A program made the position numbers and the translations under genes. From sequence record AY264776.1: a stretch of 37,664 nt of DNA; one strand, written 5' to 3'. The notes beneath the pieces were generated by a model. The model worked only from the letters and a program-made list of their open reading frames with translations, did not search any database and was not told where the DNA came from. This document shows positions 1,472 to 17,566 of this stretch, one piece after another. Source of the stretch: Escherichia phage T7. Within the stretch, counting starts at the first letter, position 1. Each line of letters begins with the position of its first letter.

Positions 1472-1556
1472 ATGTATATGGACTGATAGTCTTATCTTAC
1501 AGGTCATTTGCGGGTGGCCTGAATAGGTACGATTTACTAACTGAAAGAGGCACTAA
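1472..1556 (+). other. Deletion scar: first codons of gene 0.5 (atgtatatg) joined to the sequence immediately upstream of gene 1; genes 0.5, 0.6, 0.7 absent
   Basis: Gene 0.4 is followed after ~150 bp by the RNA polymerase gene; no kinase (0.7) ORF anywhere in the window. Confidence 0.8.
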
Positions 1557-4208
1557 ATGAACACGATTAACATTGCTAAGAACGACTTCTCTGACATCGA
1601 ACTGGCTGCTATCCCGTTCAACACTCTGGCTGACCATTACGGTGAGCGTTTAGCTCGCGAACAGTTGGCTCTTGAACATGAGTCTTACGAGATGGGTGAA
1701 GCACGCTTCCGCAAGATGTTTGAGCGTCAACTTAAAGCTGGTGAGGTTGCGGATAACGCTGCCGCCAAGCCTCTCATCACTACCCTACTCCCTAAGATGA
1801 TTGCACGCATCAACGACTGGTTTGAGGAAGTGAAAGCTAAGCGCGGCAAGCGTCCGACAGCCTTCCAGTTTCTGCAAGAAATCAAGCCGGAAGCCGTAGC
1901 GTACATCACCATTAAAACCACTCTGGCTTGCCTAACCAGTGCTGACAATATAACCGTTCAGGCTGTAGCAAGCGCAATCGGTCGGGCCATTGAGGACGAG
2001 GCTCGCTTCGGTCGTATCCGTGACCTTGAAGCTAAGCACTTCAAGAAAAACGTTGAGGAACAACTCAACAAGCGCGTAGGGCACGTCTACAAGAAAGCAT
2101 TTATGCAAGTTGTCGAGGCTGACATGCTCTCTAAGGGTCTACTCGGTGGCGAGGCGTGGTCTTCGTGGCATAAGGAAGACTCTATTCATGTAGGAGTACG
2201 CTGCATCGAGATGCTCATTGAGTCAACCGGAATGGTTAGCTTACACCGCCAAAATGCTGGCGTAGTAGGTCAAGACTCTGAGACTATCGAACTCGCACCT
2301 GAATACGCTGAGGCTATCGCAACCCGTGCAGGTGCGCTGGCTGGCATTTCTCCAATGTTCCAACCTTGCGTAATTCCTTCTAAGCCGTGGACTGGCATTA
2401 CTGGTGGTGGCTATTGGGCTAACGGTCGTCGTCCTCTGGCGCTGGTGCGTACTCACAGTAAGAAAGCACTGATGCGCTACGAAAACGTTTACATGCCTGA
2501 GGTGTACAAAGCGATTAACATTGCGCAAAACACCGCATGGAAAATCAACAAGAAAGTCCTAGCGGTCGCCAACGTAATTACCAAGTGGAAGCATTGTCCG
2601 GTCGAGGACATCCCTGCGATTGAGCGTGAAGAACTCCCGATGAAACCGAAAGACATCGACATGAATCCTGAGGCTCTCACCGCGTGGAAACGTGCTGCCG
2701 CTGCTGTGTACCGCAAGGACAAGGCTCGCAAATCTCGCCGTATCAACCTTGAGTTCATGCTTGAGCAAGCCAATAAGTTTGCTAACCATAAGGCCATCTG
2801 GTTCCCTTACAACATGGACTGGCGCGGTCGTGTTTACGCTGTGTCAATGTTCAACCCGCAAGGTAACGATATGACCAAAGGACTGCTTACGCTGGCGAAA
2901 GGTAAACCAATCGGTAAGGAAGGTTACTACTGGCTGAAAATCCACGGTGCAAACTGTGCGGGTGTCGATAAGGTTCCGTTCCCTGAGCGCATCAAGTTCA
3001 TTGAGGAAAACCACGAGAACATCATGGCTTGTGCTAAGTCTCCACTGGAGAACACTTGGTGGGCTGAGCAAAATTCTCCGTTCTGCTTCCTTGCGTTCTG
3101 CTTTGAGTACGCTGGAGTACAGCACCACGGCCTGAGCTATAACTGCTCCCTTCCGCTGGCGTTTGACGGGTCTTGCTCTGGCATCCAGCACTTCTCCGCG
3201 ATGCTCCGAGATGAGGTAGGTGGTCGCGCGGTTAACTTGCTTCCTAGTGAAACCGTTCAGGACATCTACGGGATTGTTGCTAAAAAAGTCAACGAGATTC
3301 TACAAGCAGACGCAATCAATGGGACTGATAACGAAGTAGTTACCGTGACCGATGAGAACACTGGTGAAATCTCTGAGAAAATCAAACTGGGCACTAAGGC
3401 ACTGGCTGGTCAATGGCTGGCTTACGGTGTTACTCGCAGTGTGACTAAGCGTTCAGTCATGACGCTGGCTTACGGGTCCAAAGAGTTCGGCTTCCGTCAA
3501 CAAGTGCTAGAAGATACCATTCAGCCAGCTATTGATTCCGGCAAGGGTCTGATGTTCACTCAGCCGAATCAGGCTGCTGGATACATGGCTAAGCTGATTT
3601 GGGAATCTGTGAGCGTGACGGTGGTAGCTGCGGTTGAAGCAATGAACTGGCTTAAGTCTGCTGCTAAGCTGCTGGCTGCTGAGGTCAAAGATAAGAAGAC
3701 TGGAGAGATTCTTCGCAAGCGTTGCGCTGTGCATTGGGTAACTCCTGATGGTTTCCCTGTGTGGCAGGAATACAAGAAGCCTATTCAGACGCGCTTGAAC
3801 CTGATGTTCCTCGGTCAGTTCCGCTTACAGCCTACCATTAATACCAACAAAGATAGCGAGATTGATGCACACAAACAGGAGTCTGGTATCGCTCCTAACT
3901 TTGTACACAGTCAAGACGGTAGCCATCTTCGTAAGACTGTAGTGTGGGCACACGAGAAGTACGGAATCGAATCTTTTGCACTGATTCACGACTCCTTCGG
4001 TACCATTCCGGCTGACGCTGCGAACCTGTGCAAAGCAGTGCGCGAAACTATGGTTGACACATATGAGTCTTGTGATGTACTGGCTGATTTCTACGACCAG
4101 TTCGCTGACCAGTTGCACGAGTCTCAATTGGACAAAATGCCAGCACTTCCGGCTAAAGGTAACTTGAACCTCCGTGACATCTTAGAGTCGGACTTCGCGT
4201 TCGCGTAA
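1557..4208 (+). CDS. 1: T7 DNA-directed RNA polymerase
   Basis: 883 aa; catalytic HDSFG motif and C-terminal FAFA present. Confidence 0.98.
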   Translation: MNTINIAKNDFSDIELAAIPFNTLADHYGERLAREQLALEHESYEMGEARFRKMFERQLKAGEVADNAAAKPLITTLLPKMIARINDWFEEVKAKRGKRPTAFQFLQEIKPEAVAYITIKTTLACLTSADNITVQAVASAIGRAIEDEARFGRIRDLEAKHFKKNVEEQLNKRVGHVYKKAFMQVVEADMLSKGLLGGEAWSSWHKEDSIHVGVRCIEMLIESTGMVSLHRQNAGVVGQDSETIELAPEYAEAIATRAGALAGISPMFQPCVIPSKPWTGITGGGYWANGRRPLALVRTHSKKALMRYENVYMPEVYKAINIAQNTAWKINKKVLAVANVITKWKHCPVEDIPAIEREELPMKPKDIDMNPEALTAWKRAAAAVYRKDKARKSRRINLEFMLEQANKFANHKAIWFPYNMDWRGRVYAVSMFNPQGNDMTKGLLTLAKGKPIGKEGYYWLKIHGANCAGVDKVPFPERIKFIEENHENIMACAKSPLENTWWAEQNSPFCFLAFCFEYAGVQHHGLSYNCSLPLAFDGSCSGIQHFSAMLRDEVGGRAVNLLPSETVQDIYGIVAKKVNEILQADAINGTDNEVVTVTDENTGEISEKIKLGTKALAGQWLAYGVTRSVTKRSVMTLAYGSKEFGFRQQVLEDTIQPAIDSGKGLMFTQPNQAAGYMAKLIWESVSVTVVAAVEAMNWLKSAAKLLAAEVKDKKTGEILRKRCAVHWVTPDGFPVWQEYKKPIQTRLNLMFLGQFRLQPTINTNKDSEIDAHKQESGIAPNFVHSQDGSHLRKTVVWAHEKYGIESFALIHDSFGTIPADAANLCKAVRETMVDTYESCDVLADFYDQFADQLHESQLDKMPALPAKGNLNLRDILESDFAFA

Positions 4209-4522: not shown

Positions 4523-4780
4523 ATGGGACGTTTATATAGTGGTAATCTGGCAGCATTCAAGGCAGCAACAAACAAGCTGTTCCAGTTAGACTTAGCGGTC
4601 ATTTATGATGACTGGTATGATGTCTATACAAGAAAAGATTGCATACGGTTACGTATTGAGGACAGGAGTGGAAACCTGATTGATACTAACACCTTCTACC
4701 ACCACGACGAGGACGTTCTGTTCAATATGTGTACTGATTGGTTGAACCATATGTATGACCAGTTGAAGGACTGGAAGTAA
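4523..4780 (+). CDS. 1.2: Gene 1.2 protein (inhibitor of host dGTPase)
   Basis: 85 aa from ATG at 4523 (MGRLYSGNLAAFKAATNKLFQ...); ORF track shows an upstream in-frame extension. Confidence 0.9.
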   Translation: MGRLYSGNLAAFKAATNKLFQLDLAVIYDDWYDVYTRKDCIRLRIEDRSGNLIDTNTFYHHDEDVLFNMCTDWLNHMYDQLKDWK

Positions 4781-4800
4781 TACGACTCAGTATAGGGACA
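4778..4800 (+). promoter_or_regulatory. T7 promoter phi1.3
   Basis: taatacgactcagtatagggaca. Confidence 0.9.
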
Positions 4801-4860
4801 ATGCTTAAGGTCGCTCTCTAGGAGTGGCCTTAGTCATTTAACCAATAGGAAATAAACATT

Positions 4861-5940
4861 ATGATGAACATTAAGACTAACCCGTTTAAAGCCGTGTCTT
4901 TCGTAGAGTCTGCCATTAAGAAGGCTCTGGATAACGCTGGGTATCTTATCGCTGAAATCAAGTACAATGATGTACGCGGGAACATCTGCGTAGACAATAC
5001 TGCTAACAGTTACTGGCTCTCTCGTGTATCTAAAACGATTCCGGCACTGGAGCACTTAAACGGGTTTGATGTTCGTTGGAAGCGTTTACTGAACGATGAT
5101 CGTTGCTTCTACAAAGATGGCTTTATGCTTGATGGGGAACTCATGGTCAAGGGCGTAAACTTTAATACAGGGTCCGGTCTACTGCGTACCAAATGGACTG
5201 ACACGAAGAACCAAGAGTTCCATGAAGAGTTATTCGTTGAACCAATCCGTAAGAAAGATAAAGTTCCCTTTAAGCTGCACACTGAACACCTTCACATAAA
5301 ACTGTACGCTATCCTCCCGCTGCACATCGTGGAGTCTGGAAAAGACTGTGATGTCATGACGTTGCTCATGCAGGAACACGTTAAGAACATGCTGCCTCTG
5401 CTACAGGAATATTTTCCTGAAATCGAATGGCAAGCGGCTGAATCTTACGAGGTCTACGATATGGTAGAACTACAGCAACTGTACGAGCAGAAGCGAGCAG
5501 AAGGCCATGAGGGTCTCATTGTGAAAGACCCGATGTGTATCTATAAGCGCGGTAAAAAATCTGGCTGGTGGAAAATGAAACCTGAGAACGAAGCTGACGG
5601 TATCATTCAGGGTCTGATATGGGGTATAAAAGGTCTGGCTAATGAAGGTAAAGTGATTGGTTTTGAGGTGCTTCTTGAGAATGGTCGTTTAGTTAACGCC
5701 ACGAATATTTCTCGTGCCTTAATGGATGAGTTCACTGAGACAGTAAAAGAGGCCACTCTAAGTCAATGGGGATTCTTTAGCCCATACGGTATTGGCGACA
5801 ACGATGCTTGTACTATTAACCCTTACGATGGCTGGGCGTGTCAAATTAGCTACATGGAGGAAACACCTGATGGCTCTTTGCGGCACCCATCGTTCGTAAT
5901 GTTCCGTGGCACTGAGGACAACCCTCAAGAGAAAATGTAA
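4861..5940 (+). CDS. 1.3: ATP-dependent DNA ligase; motif I reads K34-Y-N-D-V-R instead of KxDGxR, so possibly inactive
   Basis: 359 aa; ligase motifs FMLDGELMV, EGLIVKD, WWKMK present; motif I at 4960-4977 is aag tac aat gat gta cgc. Confidence 0.9.
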   Translation: MMNIKTNPFKAVSFVESAIKKALDNAGYLIAEIKYNDVRGNICVDNTANSYWLSRVSKTIPALEHLNGFDVRWKRLLNDDRCFYKDGFMLDGELMVKGVNFNTGSGLLRTKWTDTKNQEFHEELFVEPIRKKDKVPFKLHTEHLHIKLYAILPLHIVESGKDCDVMTLLMQEHVKNMLPLLQEYFPEIEWQAAESYEVYDMVELQQLYEQKRAEGHEGLIVKDPMCIYKRGKKSGWWKMKPENEADGIIQGLIWGIKGLANEGKVIGFEVLLENGRLVNATNISRALMDEFTETVKEATLSQWGFFSPYGIGDNDACTINPYDGWACQISYMEETPDGSLRHPSFVMFRGTEDNPQEKM

Positions 5941-6176: not shown

Positions 6177-6269
6177 ATGATGTACTTAATGCCATTACTC
6201 ATCGTCATTGTAGGATGCCTTGCGCTCTACTGTAGCGATGATGATGATATGCCAAATGGTCACGCTTAA
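6177..6269 (+). CDS. 1.5: T7 gene 1.5 small protein
   Basis: 30-codon ORF MMYLMPLLIVIVGCLALYCSDDDDMPNGHA; contains a GAT x4 repeat. Confidence 0.7.
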   Translation: MMYLMPLLIVIVGCLALYCSDDDDMPNGHA

Positions 6270-12312: not shown

Positions 12313-12720
12313 ATGCGTGACCCTAAAGTTATCCAAGCAGAAATCGCTAAACTGGAAGTTGAACTGGAGGACGTTAAGTACCATGAAGCTAAGACTCGCT
12401 CCGCTGTTCACATCTTGAAAAACTTAGGCTGGACTTGGACAAGACAGACTGGCTGAAAGAAACCAGAAGTTACCAAGTTGAGTCATAAGGTGTTCGATAA
12501 GGACACTATGACCCACATCAAGGCTGGTGATTGGGTTAAGGTTGACATGGGAATTGTTGGTGGATACGACTACGTCCGCTCAGTTAGTGACAAATATGCA
12601 CAAATGTCATACATCACAGATGTTACTCCACGCGGTGCAATCGTTACCGATAAGACCAACATGATTCACACAGATTTCTTGACAGTTGTTTCATATGAAG
12701 AGATTGTTAAGTCACGATAA
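12313..12720 (+). pseudogene. 4.7: Gene 4.7 interrupted by an in-frame opal (TGA) codon at 12454-12456
   Basis: Two same-frame ORFs (12313..12456 and 12478..12720) together span 408 nt, the length of T7 gene 4.7 (135 aa); junction reads ...TRQTG*KKPEVTKLSHK... Confidence 0.8.
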
Positions 12721-14868: not shown

Positions 14869-15249
14869 ATGAACGAAAGACACTTAACAGGTGCTGCTTC
14901 TGAAATGCTAGTAGCCTACAAATTTACCAAAGCTGGGTACACTGTCTATTACTCTATGCTGACTCAGAGTAAAGAGGACTTGGTTGTATGTAAGGATGGT
15001 AAATTTAGTAAGGTTCAGGTTAAAACAGCTACAACGGTTCAAACCAACACAGGAGATGCCAAGCAGGTTAGGCTAGGTGAATGCGGTAGGTCCGAATATA
15101 AGGATGGAGACTTTGACATTCTTGCAGTTGTGGTTGACGAAGATGTGCTTATTTTCACATGGGACGAAGTAAAAGGTAAGACATCCATGTGTGTCGGCAA
15201 GAGAAACAAAGGCATAAAACTAGAGGAGAAACTTAATGGCACTTCTTGA
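14869..15249 (+). CDS. 5.3: Gene 5.3 fused in frame to the last ~8-9 codons of gene 5.9 (deletion of 5.5, 5.7 and most of 5.9)
   Basis: 126-aa ORF starting MNERHLTGAASEMLVAYKF (gp5.3) and ending ...EEKLNGTS (gp5.9 C-terminus), overlapping the gene 6 start as 5.9 does in T7. Confidence 0.75.
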   Translation: MNERHLTGAASEMLVAYKFTKAGYTVYYSMLTQSKEDLVVCKDGKFSKVQVKTATTVQTNTGDAKQVRLGECGRSEYKDGDFDILAVVVDEDVLIFTWDEVKGKTSMCVGKRNKGIKLEEKLNGTS

Positions 15250-16595: not shown

Positions 16596-16862
16596 ATGTG
16601 TTTCTCACCGAAAATTAAAACTCCGAAGATGGATACCAATCAGATTCGAGCCGTTGAGCCAACGCCTCTGACCCAAGAAGTGTCAAGCGTGGAGTTCGGT
16701 GGGTCTTCTGATGAGACGGATACCGAGGGCACCGAAGTGTCTGGACGCAAAGGCCTCAAGGTCGAACGTGATGATTCCGTAACGAAGTCTAAAGCCAGCG
16801 GCAATGGCTCCGCTCGTATGAAATCTTCCATCCGTAAGTCCGCATTTGGAGGTAAGAAGTGA
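16596..16862 (+). CDS. 6.7: Gene 6.7 virion protein
   Basis: 88 aa from ATG 16596 (MCFSPKIKTPKMDTNQIRAV...). Confidence 0.85.
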   Translation: MCFSPKIKTPKMDTNQIRAVEPTPLTQEVSSVEFGGSSDETDTEGTEVSGRKGLKVERDDSVTKSKASGNGSARMKSSIRKSAFGGKK

Positions 16863-17263
16863 TGTCTGAGTTCACATGTGTGGAGGCTAAGAGTCGCTTC
16901 CGTGCAATCCGGTGGACTGTGGAACACCTTGGGTTGCCTAAAGGATTCGAAGAACACTTTGTGGGCTACAGCCTCTACGTAGACGAAGTGATGGACATGT
17001 TTGGTTGCCGTGAAGAGTACATTCTGGACTCTACCGGAAAACATGTAGCGTACTTCGCGTGGTGCGTAAGCTGTGACATTCACCACAAAGGAGACATTCT
17101 GGATGTAACATCCGTTGTCATTAATCCTGAGGCAGACTCTAAGGGCTTACAGCGATTCCTAGCGAAACGCTTTAAGTACCTTGCGGAACTCCACGATTGC
17201 GATTGGGTGTCTCGTTGTAAACATGAAAGCGAGACAATGCGTGTATACTTTAAGGAGGTATAA
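16862..17263 (+). CDS. 7: Gene 7 protein (host range / virion)
   Basis: 133 aa from ATG 16862; the ORF track begins at an upstream GTG. Confidence 0.85.
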   Translation: MSEFTCVEAKSRFRAIRWTVEHLGLPKGFEEHFVGYSLYVDEVMDMFGCREEYILDSTGKHVAYFAWCVSCDIHHKGDILDVTSVVINPEADSKGLQRFLAKRFKYLAELHDCDWVSRCKHESETMRVYFKEV

Positions 17264-17266
17264 GTT

Positions 17267-17566
17267 ATGGATATGAAAGTTAAGAAGGCCGTGAAGAAAG
17301 TCGCCAAGTTCGTTAAGAAAGTCGTTAAGGAAGGGGCTCGTCCGGTTACACAGGTTGCTGGCGGTCTAGCTGGTCTGGCTGGTGGTACTGGTGAAGCACA
17401 GATGGTGAAAGTACCACAAGCTGCCGCACAGATTGTTGACGTACCTGAGAAAGAGGTTTCCACTGAGGACGAAGCACAGACAGAAAGCGGACGCAAGAAA
17501 GCTCGTGCTGGCGGTAAGAAATCCTTGAGTGTAGCCCGTAGCTCCGGTAGCGGTATCAACATTTAA
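17267..17566 (+). CDS. 7.3: Gene 7.3 tail-associated protein
   Basis: 99 aa, Lys/Ala-rich MDMKVKKAVKKVAKFVKKVVKEG... Confidence 0.9.
   Translation: MDMKVKKAVKKVAKFVKKVVKEGARPVTQVAGGLAGLAGGTGEAQMVKVPQAAAQIVDVPEKEVSTEDEAQTESGRKKARAGGKKSLSVARSSGSGINI

What the first reader, a model, noticed from the sequence alone, without database searches (positions are those of the whole stretch)
4960..4977. DNA ligase motif I reads KYNDVR instead of KxDGxR
The adenylation lysine K34 is present, but the next residues are N36 and D37 (aat gat), where the nucleotidyltransferase motif I requires Asp-Gly. Both would be G-to-A transitions from gat ggt. This would probably inactivate or severely impair ligase, which is dispensable on ligase-proficient hosts.
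Basis: partly seen in the sequence, partly recalled or inferred. Interest (0 to 1): 0.6.

Follow-up and report, generated by a model that had tools for sequence, protein, structure and literature searches.

The report
Mutagen-killed DNA ligase in lab T7
The phage T7 DNA ligase gene here does carry two adjacent G-to-A mutations that destroy the invariant Asp-Gly of its catalytic motif, but the window is a published, chemically mutagenised laboratory T7 genome with about 400 such mutations, so this is an ordinary knock-out of a dispensable gene.

Summary
Window 4960-4977 encodes K34-Y-N36-D37-V-R39 in T7 gene 1.3 (DNA ligase, 4861-5940, + strand). Wild-type T7 and PDB 1A0I read KYDGVR. The changes are G>A at 4966 (D36N) and G>A at 4970 (G37D).

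The window is a near-complete T7 genome with 407 substitutions relative to the lab ancestor AY264774. 90% are G:C>A:T, and 80% of mutated G have a 5' purine, which is a nitrosoguanidine-type signature. The exact ligase protein is GenBank AAP34023.1, on a 37,664-nt contig. The closest record, T7 'isolate K' (AY264775), already carries KYND. This looks like the Bull et al. 2003 mutation-accumulation series.

Asp36 and Gly37 are invariant in 120/120 natural homologue clusters and in 98/98 IMG/VR ligase loci. No natural ligase had N-D. Published mutagenesis of the equivalent residues (LigIV D275A, Chlorella virus D29A, DraRnl G168A) abolishes nick sealing.

The ligase is very probably catalytically dead and is tolerated because host ligase substitutes. 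None of its lesions changed between isolate K and this genome, which differ by about 21 other substitutions. Activity was not measured. Interest is low, and the case is already known in kind and in sequence.

The parts
4861..5940 (+). T7 gene 1.3, ATP-dependent DNA ligase. The ORF is intact (359 aa) and carries 20 substitutions relative to wild type: 8 amino-acid changes and 12 synonymous.
   Evidence: ORF list. 98.1% nt identity to wild-type T7 gene 1.3 and 99.9% to isolate K. Pfam PF01068 + PF17879. PDB 1A0I, E=6.6e-240. Substitution list.
4960..4977 (+). Nucleotidyltransferase motif I, reading KYNDVR instead of KYDGVR. K34 (adenylation lysine) and R39 are retained.
4966..4966 (+). G>A, GAT>AAT, D36N. 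It removes the motif I carboxylate, which in homologues acts as a catalytic-metal ligand through water.
   Evidence: D is invariant in 120/120 homologues. Pfam score -2.8 bits. Role of the equivalent D570 in LIG1: PMC6882888.
4970..4970 (+). G>A, GGT>GAT, G37D. It puts a charged side chain at the invariant motif I glycine. The mutated G has a 5' G, the preferred mutagen context.
   Evidence: G is invariant in 120/120 homologues. Pfam score -6.9 bits. DraRnl G168A has <1% activity.
4851..4851 (+). G>A in the gene 1.3 Shine-Dalgarno (AGGAG>AGGAA). This may weaken translation, but it is not ligase-specific evidence.
   Evidence: SD-region hits occur in 14 of 46 genes, including essential gene 10A with the same GGAG>GGAA change.
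4778..4800 (+). T7 promoter phi1.3 (TAATACGACTCAGTATAGGGACA), unchanged from wild type.
   Evidence: Alignment. Promoter annotated at V01146 6409.
5158..5158 (+). G>A, D100N. A further replacement at a residue invariant in 120/120 close homologues.
5627..5627 (+). C>T, T256I, in the OB-fold C-terminal domain. The residue is invariant in 120/120 homologues and in the 8-genome panel.

Best explanation
The window is a laboratory T7 genome that accumulated about 400 mutations under an alkylating mutagen (nitrosoguanidine-type). It is GenBank-deposited and closely related to, apparently derived from, T7 'isolate K'. Two of those G>A transitions struck adjacent codons of ligase motif I and converted K-Y-D-G-V-R to K-Y-N-D-V-R. 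D36N removes the carboxylate that, in homologous ligases, positions the catalytic Mg2+ for adenylyl transfer and nick sealing. G37D places a bulky acidic side chain at a glycine that no natural homologue replaces. The protein is therefore expected to be made as a full-length but catalytically dead, or nearly dead, ligase. The phage survives because T7 ligase is dispensable when the host's own ligase is functional, so these hits were not purged by selection. Shown here: the sequence change, its mutagenic origin, its provenance, the invariance of both residues, and the absence of any ligase change between isolate K and this genome. Inferred: loss of activity, and tolerance through host ligase.
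For: Sequence change. Mutagen origin: 407 non-N substitutions versus ancestor AY264774, of which 367 (90%) are G:C>A:T. The 5' neighbour of the mutated G is a purine in 80% of cases against 51% background. GC>AT dominance after nitrosoguanidine mutagenesis of T7 is reported in PMC6042481. Provenance: the exact protein is AAP34023.1 'gene 1.3 [Escherichia phage T7]' on a 37,664-nt contig. Its accession directly follows the protein series of AY264775 isolate K. K is 99.9% identical and already has KYND. Conservation: D36 and G37 are invariant in 120/120 homologue clusters. In IMG/VR, 98/98 verified ligase loci have D-G, and the only two N-D pattern matches are not ligases. The two changes cost 9.7 of the 11.6 bits lost against PF01068. 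Function of the residues: LIG1 D570 is one of three stringently conserved acidic residues around the catalytic Mg2+ (PMC6882888). LigIV D275A has almost undetectable nick sealing, and Chlorella virus D29A has undetectable or trace activity on the adenylated substrate (PMC6035275). DraRnl motif I G168A has <1% activity and is defective in steps 1 and 3 (PMC1807946). Dispensability: phage ligase is 'essential' only on a ligase-defective host (PMC4811365). Selection pattern: replacements in essential genes avoid invariant residues (17 observed, 36.8 expected), while ligase replacements do not (3 observed, 2.2 expected). Non-essential genes pooled have omega 0.98 and essential genes 0.55. About 21 substitutions separate this genome from K, 17 of 18 coding ones are amino-acid changes in other genes, and none touches ligase.
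Against: No enzymatic or plating data exist for this allele, so inactivation is inferred from homologues. The published substitutions are mostly to alanine, not D>N or G>D. LigIV D275A still sealed a pre-adenylated nick (PMC6035275), so the Asp is not equally critical at every step in every ligase. Within ligase the nonsynonymous:synonymous ratio is 8:12 (omega 0.38). That is lower than neutral expectation (binomial p=0.026, uncorrected) and is not what prolonged neutral decay predicts; it suggests the knock-out came late or that the numbers are simply small. The ligase versus essential-gene contrast at invariant sites is not significant on its own (Fisher p=0.11). The ORF, promoter and all other motifs are intact. 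The Bull et al. 2003 paper could not be read, so the mutagen, host and passage history rest on citing papers, sequence signatures and my recollection.
Confidence: 0.87

Rival explanations
1. The KYND ligase is a hypomorph or still functional. For example, Asp37 might partly take over the role of the lost Asp36 (a one-residue register shift of the carboxylate), leaving useful nick-sealing activity.
For: The Asp is not lost from the motif but moved by one position. The ORF, promoter and all other catalytic motifs are intact. The low N:S ratio in ligase (8:12, omega 0.38, p=0.026) could mean the gene was still under some purifying selection. LigIV D275A retained step 3 activity.
Against: No natural homologue uses N-D or anything other than D-G (120/120; 98/98). 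Even Gly>Ala at this position gives <1% activity in DraRnl. G37D alone costs 6.9 bits against the family profile. Two more invariant residues, D100 and T256, are also replaced.
Confidence: 0.07
2. Loss of ligase was positively selected, that is, inactivation was adaptive under the passage or mutagen regime, rather than tolerated neutral damage.
For: Two hits landed in the two most critical adjacent residues, and there is also an SD hit. Other non-essential early genes were deleted outright in this lineage. The lesions are unchanged between isolate K and this genome.
Against: The adjacency is within chance expectation for this mutation density. SD hits are common genome-wide, including in essential genes. 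The gene was not deleted, although deletions did occur elsewhere. No known benefit of losing ligase exists; Rokyta et al. 2002, as summarised in PMC4811365, treat loss as costly only on lig-deficient hosts.
Confidence: 0.04
3. The two differences are sequencing or assembly errors in the deposited record.
For: The record is of 2003-era quality, with six N in the window and further N in isolate K.
Against: Both changes are present in two separately deposited genomes, the window and AY264775. They have exactly the mutagen's G>A type, and neither position is ambiguous. The two records come from one lineage and one lab, so they are not fully independent.
Confidence: 0.015
4. It is a natural, divergent T7 relative whose ligase has an unusual motif I.
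For: None beyond the bare motif difference.
Against: 90% of the differences from T7 are G:C>A:T in a 5'-purine context, unlike natural divergence. Natural relatives at 53-98% identity all keep D-G.
Confidence: 0.005

Closest known systems
Bacteriophage T7 gene 1.3 ATP-dependent DNA ligase (PDB 1A0I; V01146 CAA24393)
   Same: Same gene at the same locus, between genes 1.2 and 1.4 and behind promoter phi1.3. The length is the same at 359 aa, with 351 of 359 residues identical. The Pfam architecture is the same (PF01068 + PF17879), and K34 and R39 of motif I are kept.
   Different: D36N and G37D destroy the Asp-Gly of motif I. Six further replacements are present (D100N, G142E, E161K, V253I, T256I, S274N), plus a G>A in the Shine-Dalgarno.
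T7 'isolate K' (AY264775) and the mutagenised T7 lines of Bull, Badgett, Rokyta & Molineux 2003 (J Mol Evol 57:241)
   Same: 99.9% identical across the genome. The ligase allele is the same, including KYND, and the G:C>A:T load is the same. The protein accession series is adjacent.
   Different: The window has a larger early-region deletion (ancestor 1505-3085) and an extra deletion of genes 5.5-5.9. It also has about 21 additional substitutions, mostly transversions and nearly all amino-acid changes in essential genes. That pattern is typical of a later non-mutagenic recovery phase.
Engineered motif I mutants of nucleotidyltransferase-superfamily ligases (Chlorella virus D29A, human LigIV D275A, D. 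radiodurans RNA ligase G168A)
   Same: Substitution of the same two motif I positions, with the adenylation lysine retained. Those mutants lose nick sealing (PMC6035275, PMC1807946).
   Different: Those are single alanine substitutions made deliberately and assayed in vitro. Here the change is a double Asn/Asp substitution that arose by random mutagenesis in vivo and was never assayed.
T7 and T3 ligase-deletion phages (Rokyta et al. 2002; Harcombe et al. 2009)
   Same: Phage lacking functional ligase yet viable on ligase-proficient hosts (PMC4811365).
   Different: Those are clean deletions that were then adapted on a ligase-deficient host with compensatory changes. Here the gene is retained as a full-length, point-mutated ORF, and there is no evidence of selection for compensation.

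Membership tests
ATP-dependent DNA ligase (nucleotidyltransferase superfamily, Pfam PF01068 + PF17879) | Adenylation domain and OB-fold C-terminal domain detected above the curated thresholds | tested here: met
   PF01068 scores 115.7 bits (cut-off 26.2) and PF17879 scores 245.7 bits (cut-off 25). PDB 1A0I matches with E=6.6e-240.
ATP-dependent DNA ligase (nucleotidyltransferase superfamily, Pfam PF01068 + PF17879) | Motif I K-x-D-G-x-R, with Lys as the AMP acceptor | tested here: not met
   The motif reads K-Y-N-D-V-R. Lys34 and Arg39 are present, but Asp36 and Gly37 are replaced. The gene is a ligase by descent, but it fails the catalytic-motif criterion for an active member.
ATP-dependent DNA ligase (nucleotidyltransferase superfamily, Pfam PF01068 + PF17879) | The remaining catalytic residues unchanged relative to an active, crystallised enzyme | tested here: met
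   The residue-by-residue alignment to 1A0I shows only D100N, G142E, E161K, V253I, T256I and S274N besides motif I. All other positions are identical. D100 and T256 are themselves invariant in 120 homologues.
ATP-dependent DNA ligase (nucleotidyltransferase superfamily, Pfam PF01068 + PF17879) | Self-adenylylation and nick-sealing activity | not testable with these tools
   This needs purified protein, or plating on a lig-ts host.
T7 gene 1.3 orthologue (Teseptimavirus early/DNA-metabolism region) | Position between genes 1.2 and 1.4, downstream of promoter phi1.3 and upstream of terminator TE | tested here: met
   The window is collinear with V01146 and AY264774. The phi1.3 promoter is identical to wild type.
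Chemically mutagenised laboratory T7 lineage (Bull et al. 2003 series) | Hundreds of substitutions relative to T7+, dominated by G:C>A:T | tested here: met
   407 substitutions, 90% G:C>A:T. GC>AT dominance is reported for nitrosoguanidine-treated T7 (PMC6042481).
Chemically mutagenised laboratory T7 lineage (Bull et al. 2003 series) | Alkylating-agent sequence context (mutated G preceded by a purine) | tested here: met
   80% of mutated G have a 5' purine against 51% background. That this context is typical of MNNG is from my own knowledge and was not checked in a paper here.
Chemically mutagenised laboratory T7 lineage (Bull et al. 2003 series) | Identity with a deposited record of that series | tested here: met
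   The exact ligase protein is AAP34023.1, on a 37,664-nt contig equal to the window length. Its number fits the record directly after AY264775 (AAP33966-AAP34017). The nucleotide accession itself was not retrieved, and the paper is not held.

The most novel reading that the evidence does not exclude
K-Y-N-D-V-R might be a functional, register-shifted motif I. In that case Asp37 would substitute for Asp36 in organising the catalytic metal, showing unexpected plasticity of the most conserved motif of covalent nucleotidyltransferases. The low N:S ratio in the gene (8:12) would then reflect continued selection on a working enzyme.
Probability: 0.04. Interest if true: 0.45.

Novelty: already known. 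Interest (0 to 1): 0.12.

Why it matters
It matters little for discovery. The sequence has been public since about 2003 as part of a deliberate mutation-accumulation experiment, and knocking out a dispensable phage gene by chemical mutagenesis is expected. It does give a clean worked example of how selection filters mutagen damage. Essential T7 genes avoid hits at invariant residues about two-fold, while the host-redundant ligase takes hits at its two most conserved catalytic residues and shows no change between isolate K and this genome. For annotation, the ORF should be labelled as a probably inactive ligase. Automated pipelines will call it 'ATP-dependent DNA ligase', because both Pfam domains still score far above threshold.

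Tried and rejected
1. The primary paper (Bull et al. 2003, PMID 14629033) is not held. The Chlorella virus ligase mutagenesis papers (PMC100343, PMC147278), Shuman's 2009 review (PMC2719376) and the T4 Rnl1 paper (PMC1664725) are not held either. I relied on open papers that summarise them.

2. A literature search for E. coli LigA D117A/G118A returned only unrelated ubiquitin-ligase papers.

3. I considered whether two hits 4 nt apart indicate clustered mutagenesis or selection. I rejected this: 13 close pairs were observed against 16.4 expected.

4. I considered the Shine-Dalgarno G>A at 4851 as independent evidence that ligase expression was abandoned. I rejected it as specific evidence. 14 of 46 genes have hits in the -16..-4 window, including essential gene 10A with the identical GGAG>GGAA change. 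SD tracts are purine-G-rich hot spots for this mutagen.

5. I considered whether the high substitution density in ligase (1.85% against about 1.1% genome-wide) reflects relaxed selection. The excess is in synonymous sites (12/184 against 149/5553, p=0.005 uncorrected for 46 genes), not in replacements. So it does not support that reading and is probably regional or chance variation.

The extended patterns worked. The two N-D matches were checked and are not ligases.

7. I did not run structure prediction. AlphaFold confidence would not discriminate an active from an inactive point mutant, and no coordinates are returned for inspecting backbone angles at Gly37.

Full report
**1. Observation**

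Window 4960-4977 reads aag tac aat gat gta cgc, that is K-Y-N-D-V-R. These are codons 34-39 of a 359-aa ORF at 4861..5940 on the + strand.

The ORF is phage T7 gene 1.3, the ATP-dependent DNA ligase:
- It matches the crystallised T7 ligase 1A0I at E=6.6e-240.
- It carries Pfam PF01068 and PF17879.
- It lies behind an unchanged phi1.3 promoter, between genes 1.2 and 1.4.

Wild-type T7 (V01146, AY264774) and 1A0I read KYDGVR. The two differences are G>A at 4966 (GAT>AAT, D36N) and G>A at 4970 (GGT>GAT, G37D).

**2. What the window is**

The whole window aligns collinearly with T7 from ancestor position 25 to 39933. Relative to the same laboratory's wild type (AY264774) it carries:
- 407 unambiguous substitutions, of which 367 (90%) are G:C>A:T. 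The mutated G is preceded by a purine in 80% of cases, against 51% of all G.
- Two deletions: ancestor 1505-3085, removing genes 0.5-0.7, and roughly 16850-17486, removing genes 5.5-5.9.
- Two in-frame 3-nt indels.

GC>AT dominance is what this laboratory reports for T7 grown in nitrosoguanidine (PMC6042481). The 5'-purine preference is, from my own knowledge, characteristic of MNNG-type alkylation.

The nearest public record is AY264775, 'T7 isolate K'. It is 99.9% identical and already has KYND.

The exact ligase protein of the window is on record as GenBank AAP34023.1 / UniRef100_Q6WYF8, 'gene 1.3 [Escherichia phage T7]'. It sits on a contig of 37,664 nt, which is the window's length. Its accession falls where gene 1.3 of the record after AY264775 (AAP33966-AAP34017) would fall.

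[quoted passage not shown] The paper itself is not held.

**3. How unusual the motif state is**

Both residues are invariant in natural ligases:
- Among the 120 best natural homologue clusters (66-97% identity), Asp36 and Gly37 are invariant, 120/120.
- A back-translated scan of 2.9 million IMG/VR contigs for [DE]-x-K-x-D-G-[VI]-R-G-N found 112 loci. 98 of them could be verified as ligase genes spanning motif I (53-98% identity), and all read D-G.
- The same pattern with N-D found two loci. One is outside any ORF and the other lies in an unrelated protein. Neither has ligase similarity.

Against the Pfam adenylation-domain profile, D36N costs 2.8 bits, G37D costs 6.9 bits, and both together cost 9.7 bits. 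The whole mutant protein loses 11.6 bits.

The adjacency of the two hits is not surprising in itself. Pairs of substitutions <=4 nt apart number 13, against 16.4 +/- 3.9 expected from random placement on G/C sites.

**4. Likely functional consequence (inferred)**

For the motif I Asp:
- In human LIG1 the equivalent D570 is one of three 'stringently conserved' acidic residues that hold the waters around the catalytic Mg2+ (PMC6882888).
- Alanine substitution of this Asp gives almost undetectable nick sealing in LigIV (D275A).
- In Chlorella virus ligase, D29A gives undetectable or trace activity on the adenylated substrate (PMC6035275).

For the motif I Gly, G168A in D. radiodurans RNA ligase leaves <1% activity and blocks both adenylylation and phosphodiester formation (PMC1807946).

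Here the Asp loses its charge and the Gly gains a charged side chain. Two further residues invariant in the 120 homologues, D100 and T256, are also replaced.

I therefore expect a full-length but catalytically dead, or nearly dead, protein. No assay exists for this allele. The cited mutants are alanine substitutions in other ligases. LigIV D275A did retain step 3 activity, so some residual activity cannot be excluded.

**5. Why it is tolerated**

Phage ligase is needed only when the host ligase is defective (PMC4811365, citing Rokyta et al. 2002).

The genome-wide pattern fits selective filtering:
- Under the G:C>A:T spectrum, essential genes pooled have omega 0.55 and 0.93% substitutions. Non-essential genes pooled have omega 0.98 and 1.53%.
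- I used eight diverse Studiervirinae genomes (L003-L010) to mark invariant residues. Replacements in essential genes hit invariant positions 17 times against 36.8 expected. Those in ligase hit 3 times against 2.2 expected, which is indistinguishable from neutral.
- Other non-essential genes are visibly damaged or gone. Gene 4.7 has W48*, and genes 0.5-0.7 and 5.5-5.9 are deleted.
- About 21 substitutions separate the window from isolate K. 17 of the 18 coding ones change amino acids, they are mostly transversions, and they lie in genes such as 1, 4, 5, 9, 10, 14-17. This is the signature of adaptive or compensatory recovery without mutagen. None touches ligase, and none of the ligase lesions reverted.

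**6. Caveats from the data**

- The ligase N:S ratio is 8:12 (omega 0.38). This is lower than neutral (binomial p=0.026, uncorrected). The gene's excess substitution density is in synonymous sites, not replacements.
- This is not what long neutral decay predicts. The simplest readings are small numbers, or a late knock-out after a period of purifying selection. It also leaves a small opening for residual function.
- The contrast between ligase and essential genes at invariant sites is not significant on its own (Fisher p=0.11).
- The Shine-Dalgarno G>A at 4851 (AGGAG>AGGAA) looked like a third ligase-specific lesion. However, SD-region hits occur in 14 of 46 genes, including the essential capsid gene with the same change. 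I do not count it as evidence.

**7. Comparison with what is known, and verdict**

By descent this is T7 gene 1.3. By the defining catalytic motif it fails the test for an active ATP-dependent ligase. It behaves like engineered motif I mutants and, at the phage level, like the ligase-deletion T7 studied by the same laboratory.

The sequence and the experiment that produced it are already public. The finding is an ordinary mutagen-induced lesion in a dispensable gene of a laboratory strain.

Interest is low. The only non-trivial reading left open is a functional register-shifted motif I, to which I give about 4%.

Noticed in passing
whole window, compared with AY264774 (L012): 407 substitutions, 90% G:C>A:T, and 80% of mutated G are preceded by a purine. 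The window is a complete mutagenised T7 genome, not a natural isolate. It spans ancestor positions 25-39933 and contains six N (10477, 10633, 20375, 25678, 35600, 35660).
   Followed up: yes
window 4851: G>A changes the gene 1.3 Shine-Dalgarno from AGGAG to AGGAA. Similar SD-window hits occur in 14 of 46 genes, including essential gene 10A (window 20690, the same GGAG>GGAA) and genes 1, 3, 6.7 and 13. Purine-rich SD tracts appear to be mutagen hot spots.
   Followed up: partly
window ~1471-1480 and ~15218-15235: There are two deletion junctions at short imperfect repeats. The first removes ancestor 1505-3085 (genes 0.5-0.7) and is larger than the deletion in isolate K. The second removes genes 5.5-5.9 by joining the similar SD regions of genes 5.5 and 6. 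It also deletes the gene 5.3 stop codon, extending 5.3 by about 8 codons.
   Followed up: partly
window 12313-12720 (gene 4.7): There is a premature stop, W48*, plus 8 further replacements (omega about 2). The isolate K record annotates this region only as 'similar to gene 4.7'. It is another dispensable gene knocked out.
   Followed up: partly
window 4030, 10885, 12791, 13405, 17274, 17349, 20072, 20844, 21212, 22077, 25636, 26502, 30208, 32711, 34203, 36635: The differences from isolate K are mostly transversions (A>C, T>G), and 17 of 18 coding ones change amino acids in essential genes. Examples are RNAP F825C, gp4 S312C, and DNAP F18C and L223M. Two sites changed a second time at an already mutated nucleotide: gene 10A A172>T>P and gene 15 V149>A>E. 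This looks like compensatory adaptation after mutagenesis stopped. Three are F/S>C changes through T>G or C>G, which is an odd bias and could also reflect sequencing chemistry.
   Followed up: partly
window 1557-4208 (gene 1, T7 RNA polymerase): Five of the nine RNA polymerase replacements (V273I, P275S, D310N, D506N, F825C) fall on residues invariant in the eight-genome Studiervirinae panel. That is more than other essential genes show, yet the enzyme must still work.
   Followed up: no
window 4861-5940: The synonymous substitution density in ligase is 12/184 G:C>A:T-accessible sites, about 2.5-fold the rest of the genome (149/5553; p=0.005 uncorrected). Replacement density is not elevated. 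This may reflect regional heterogeneity of mutagenesis, or chance.
   Followed up: partly
window 6237-6239 (gene 1.5) and after 6586 (gene 1.7): There is an in-frame 3-nt insertion (GAT) in gene 1.5 and an in-frame 3-nt deletion (AAG) in gene 1.7, relative to both V01146 and AY264774. Both are shared with isolate K.
   Followed up: no
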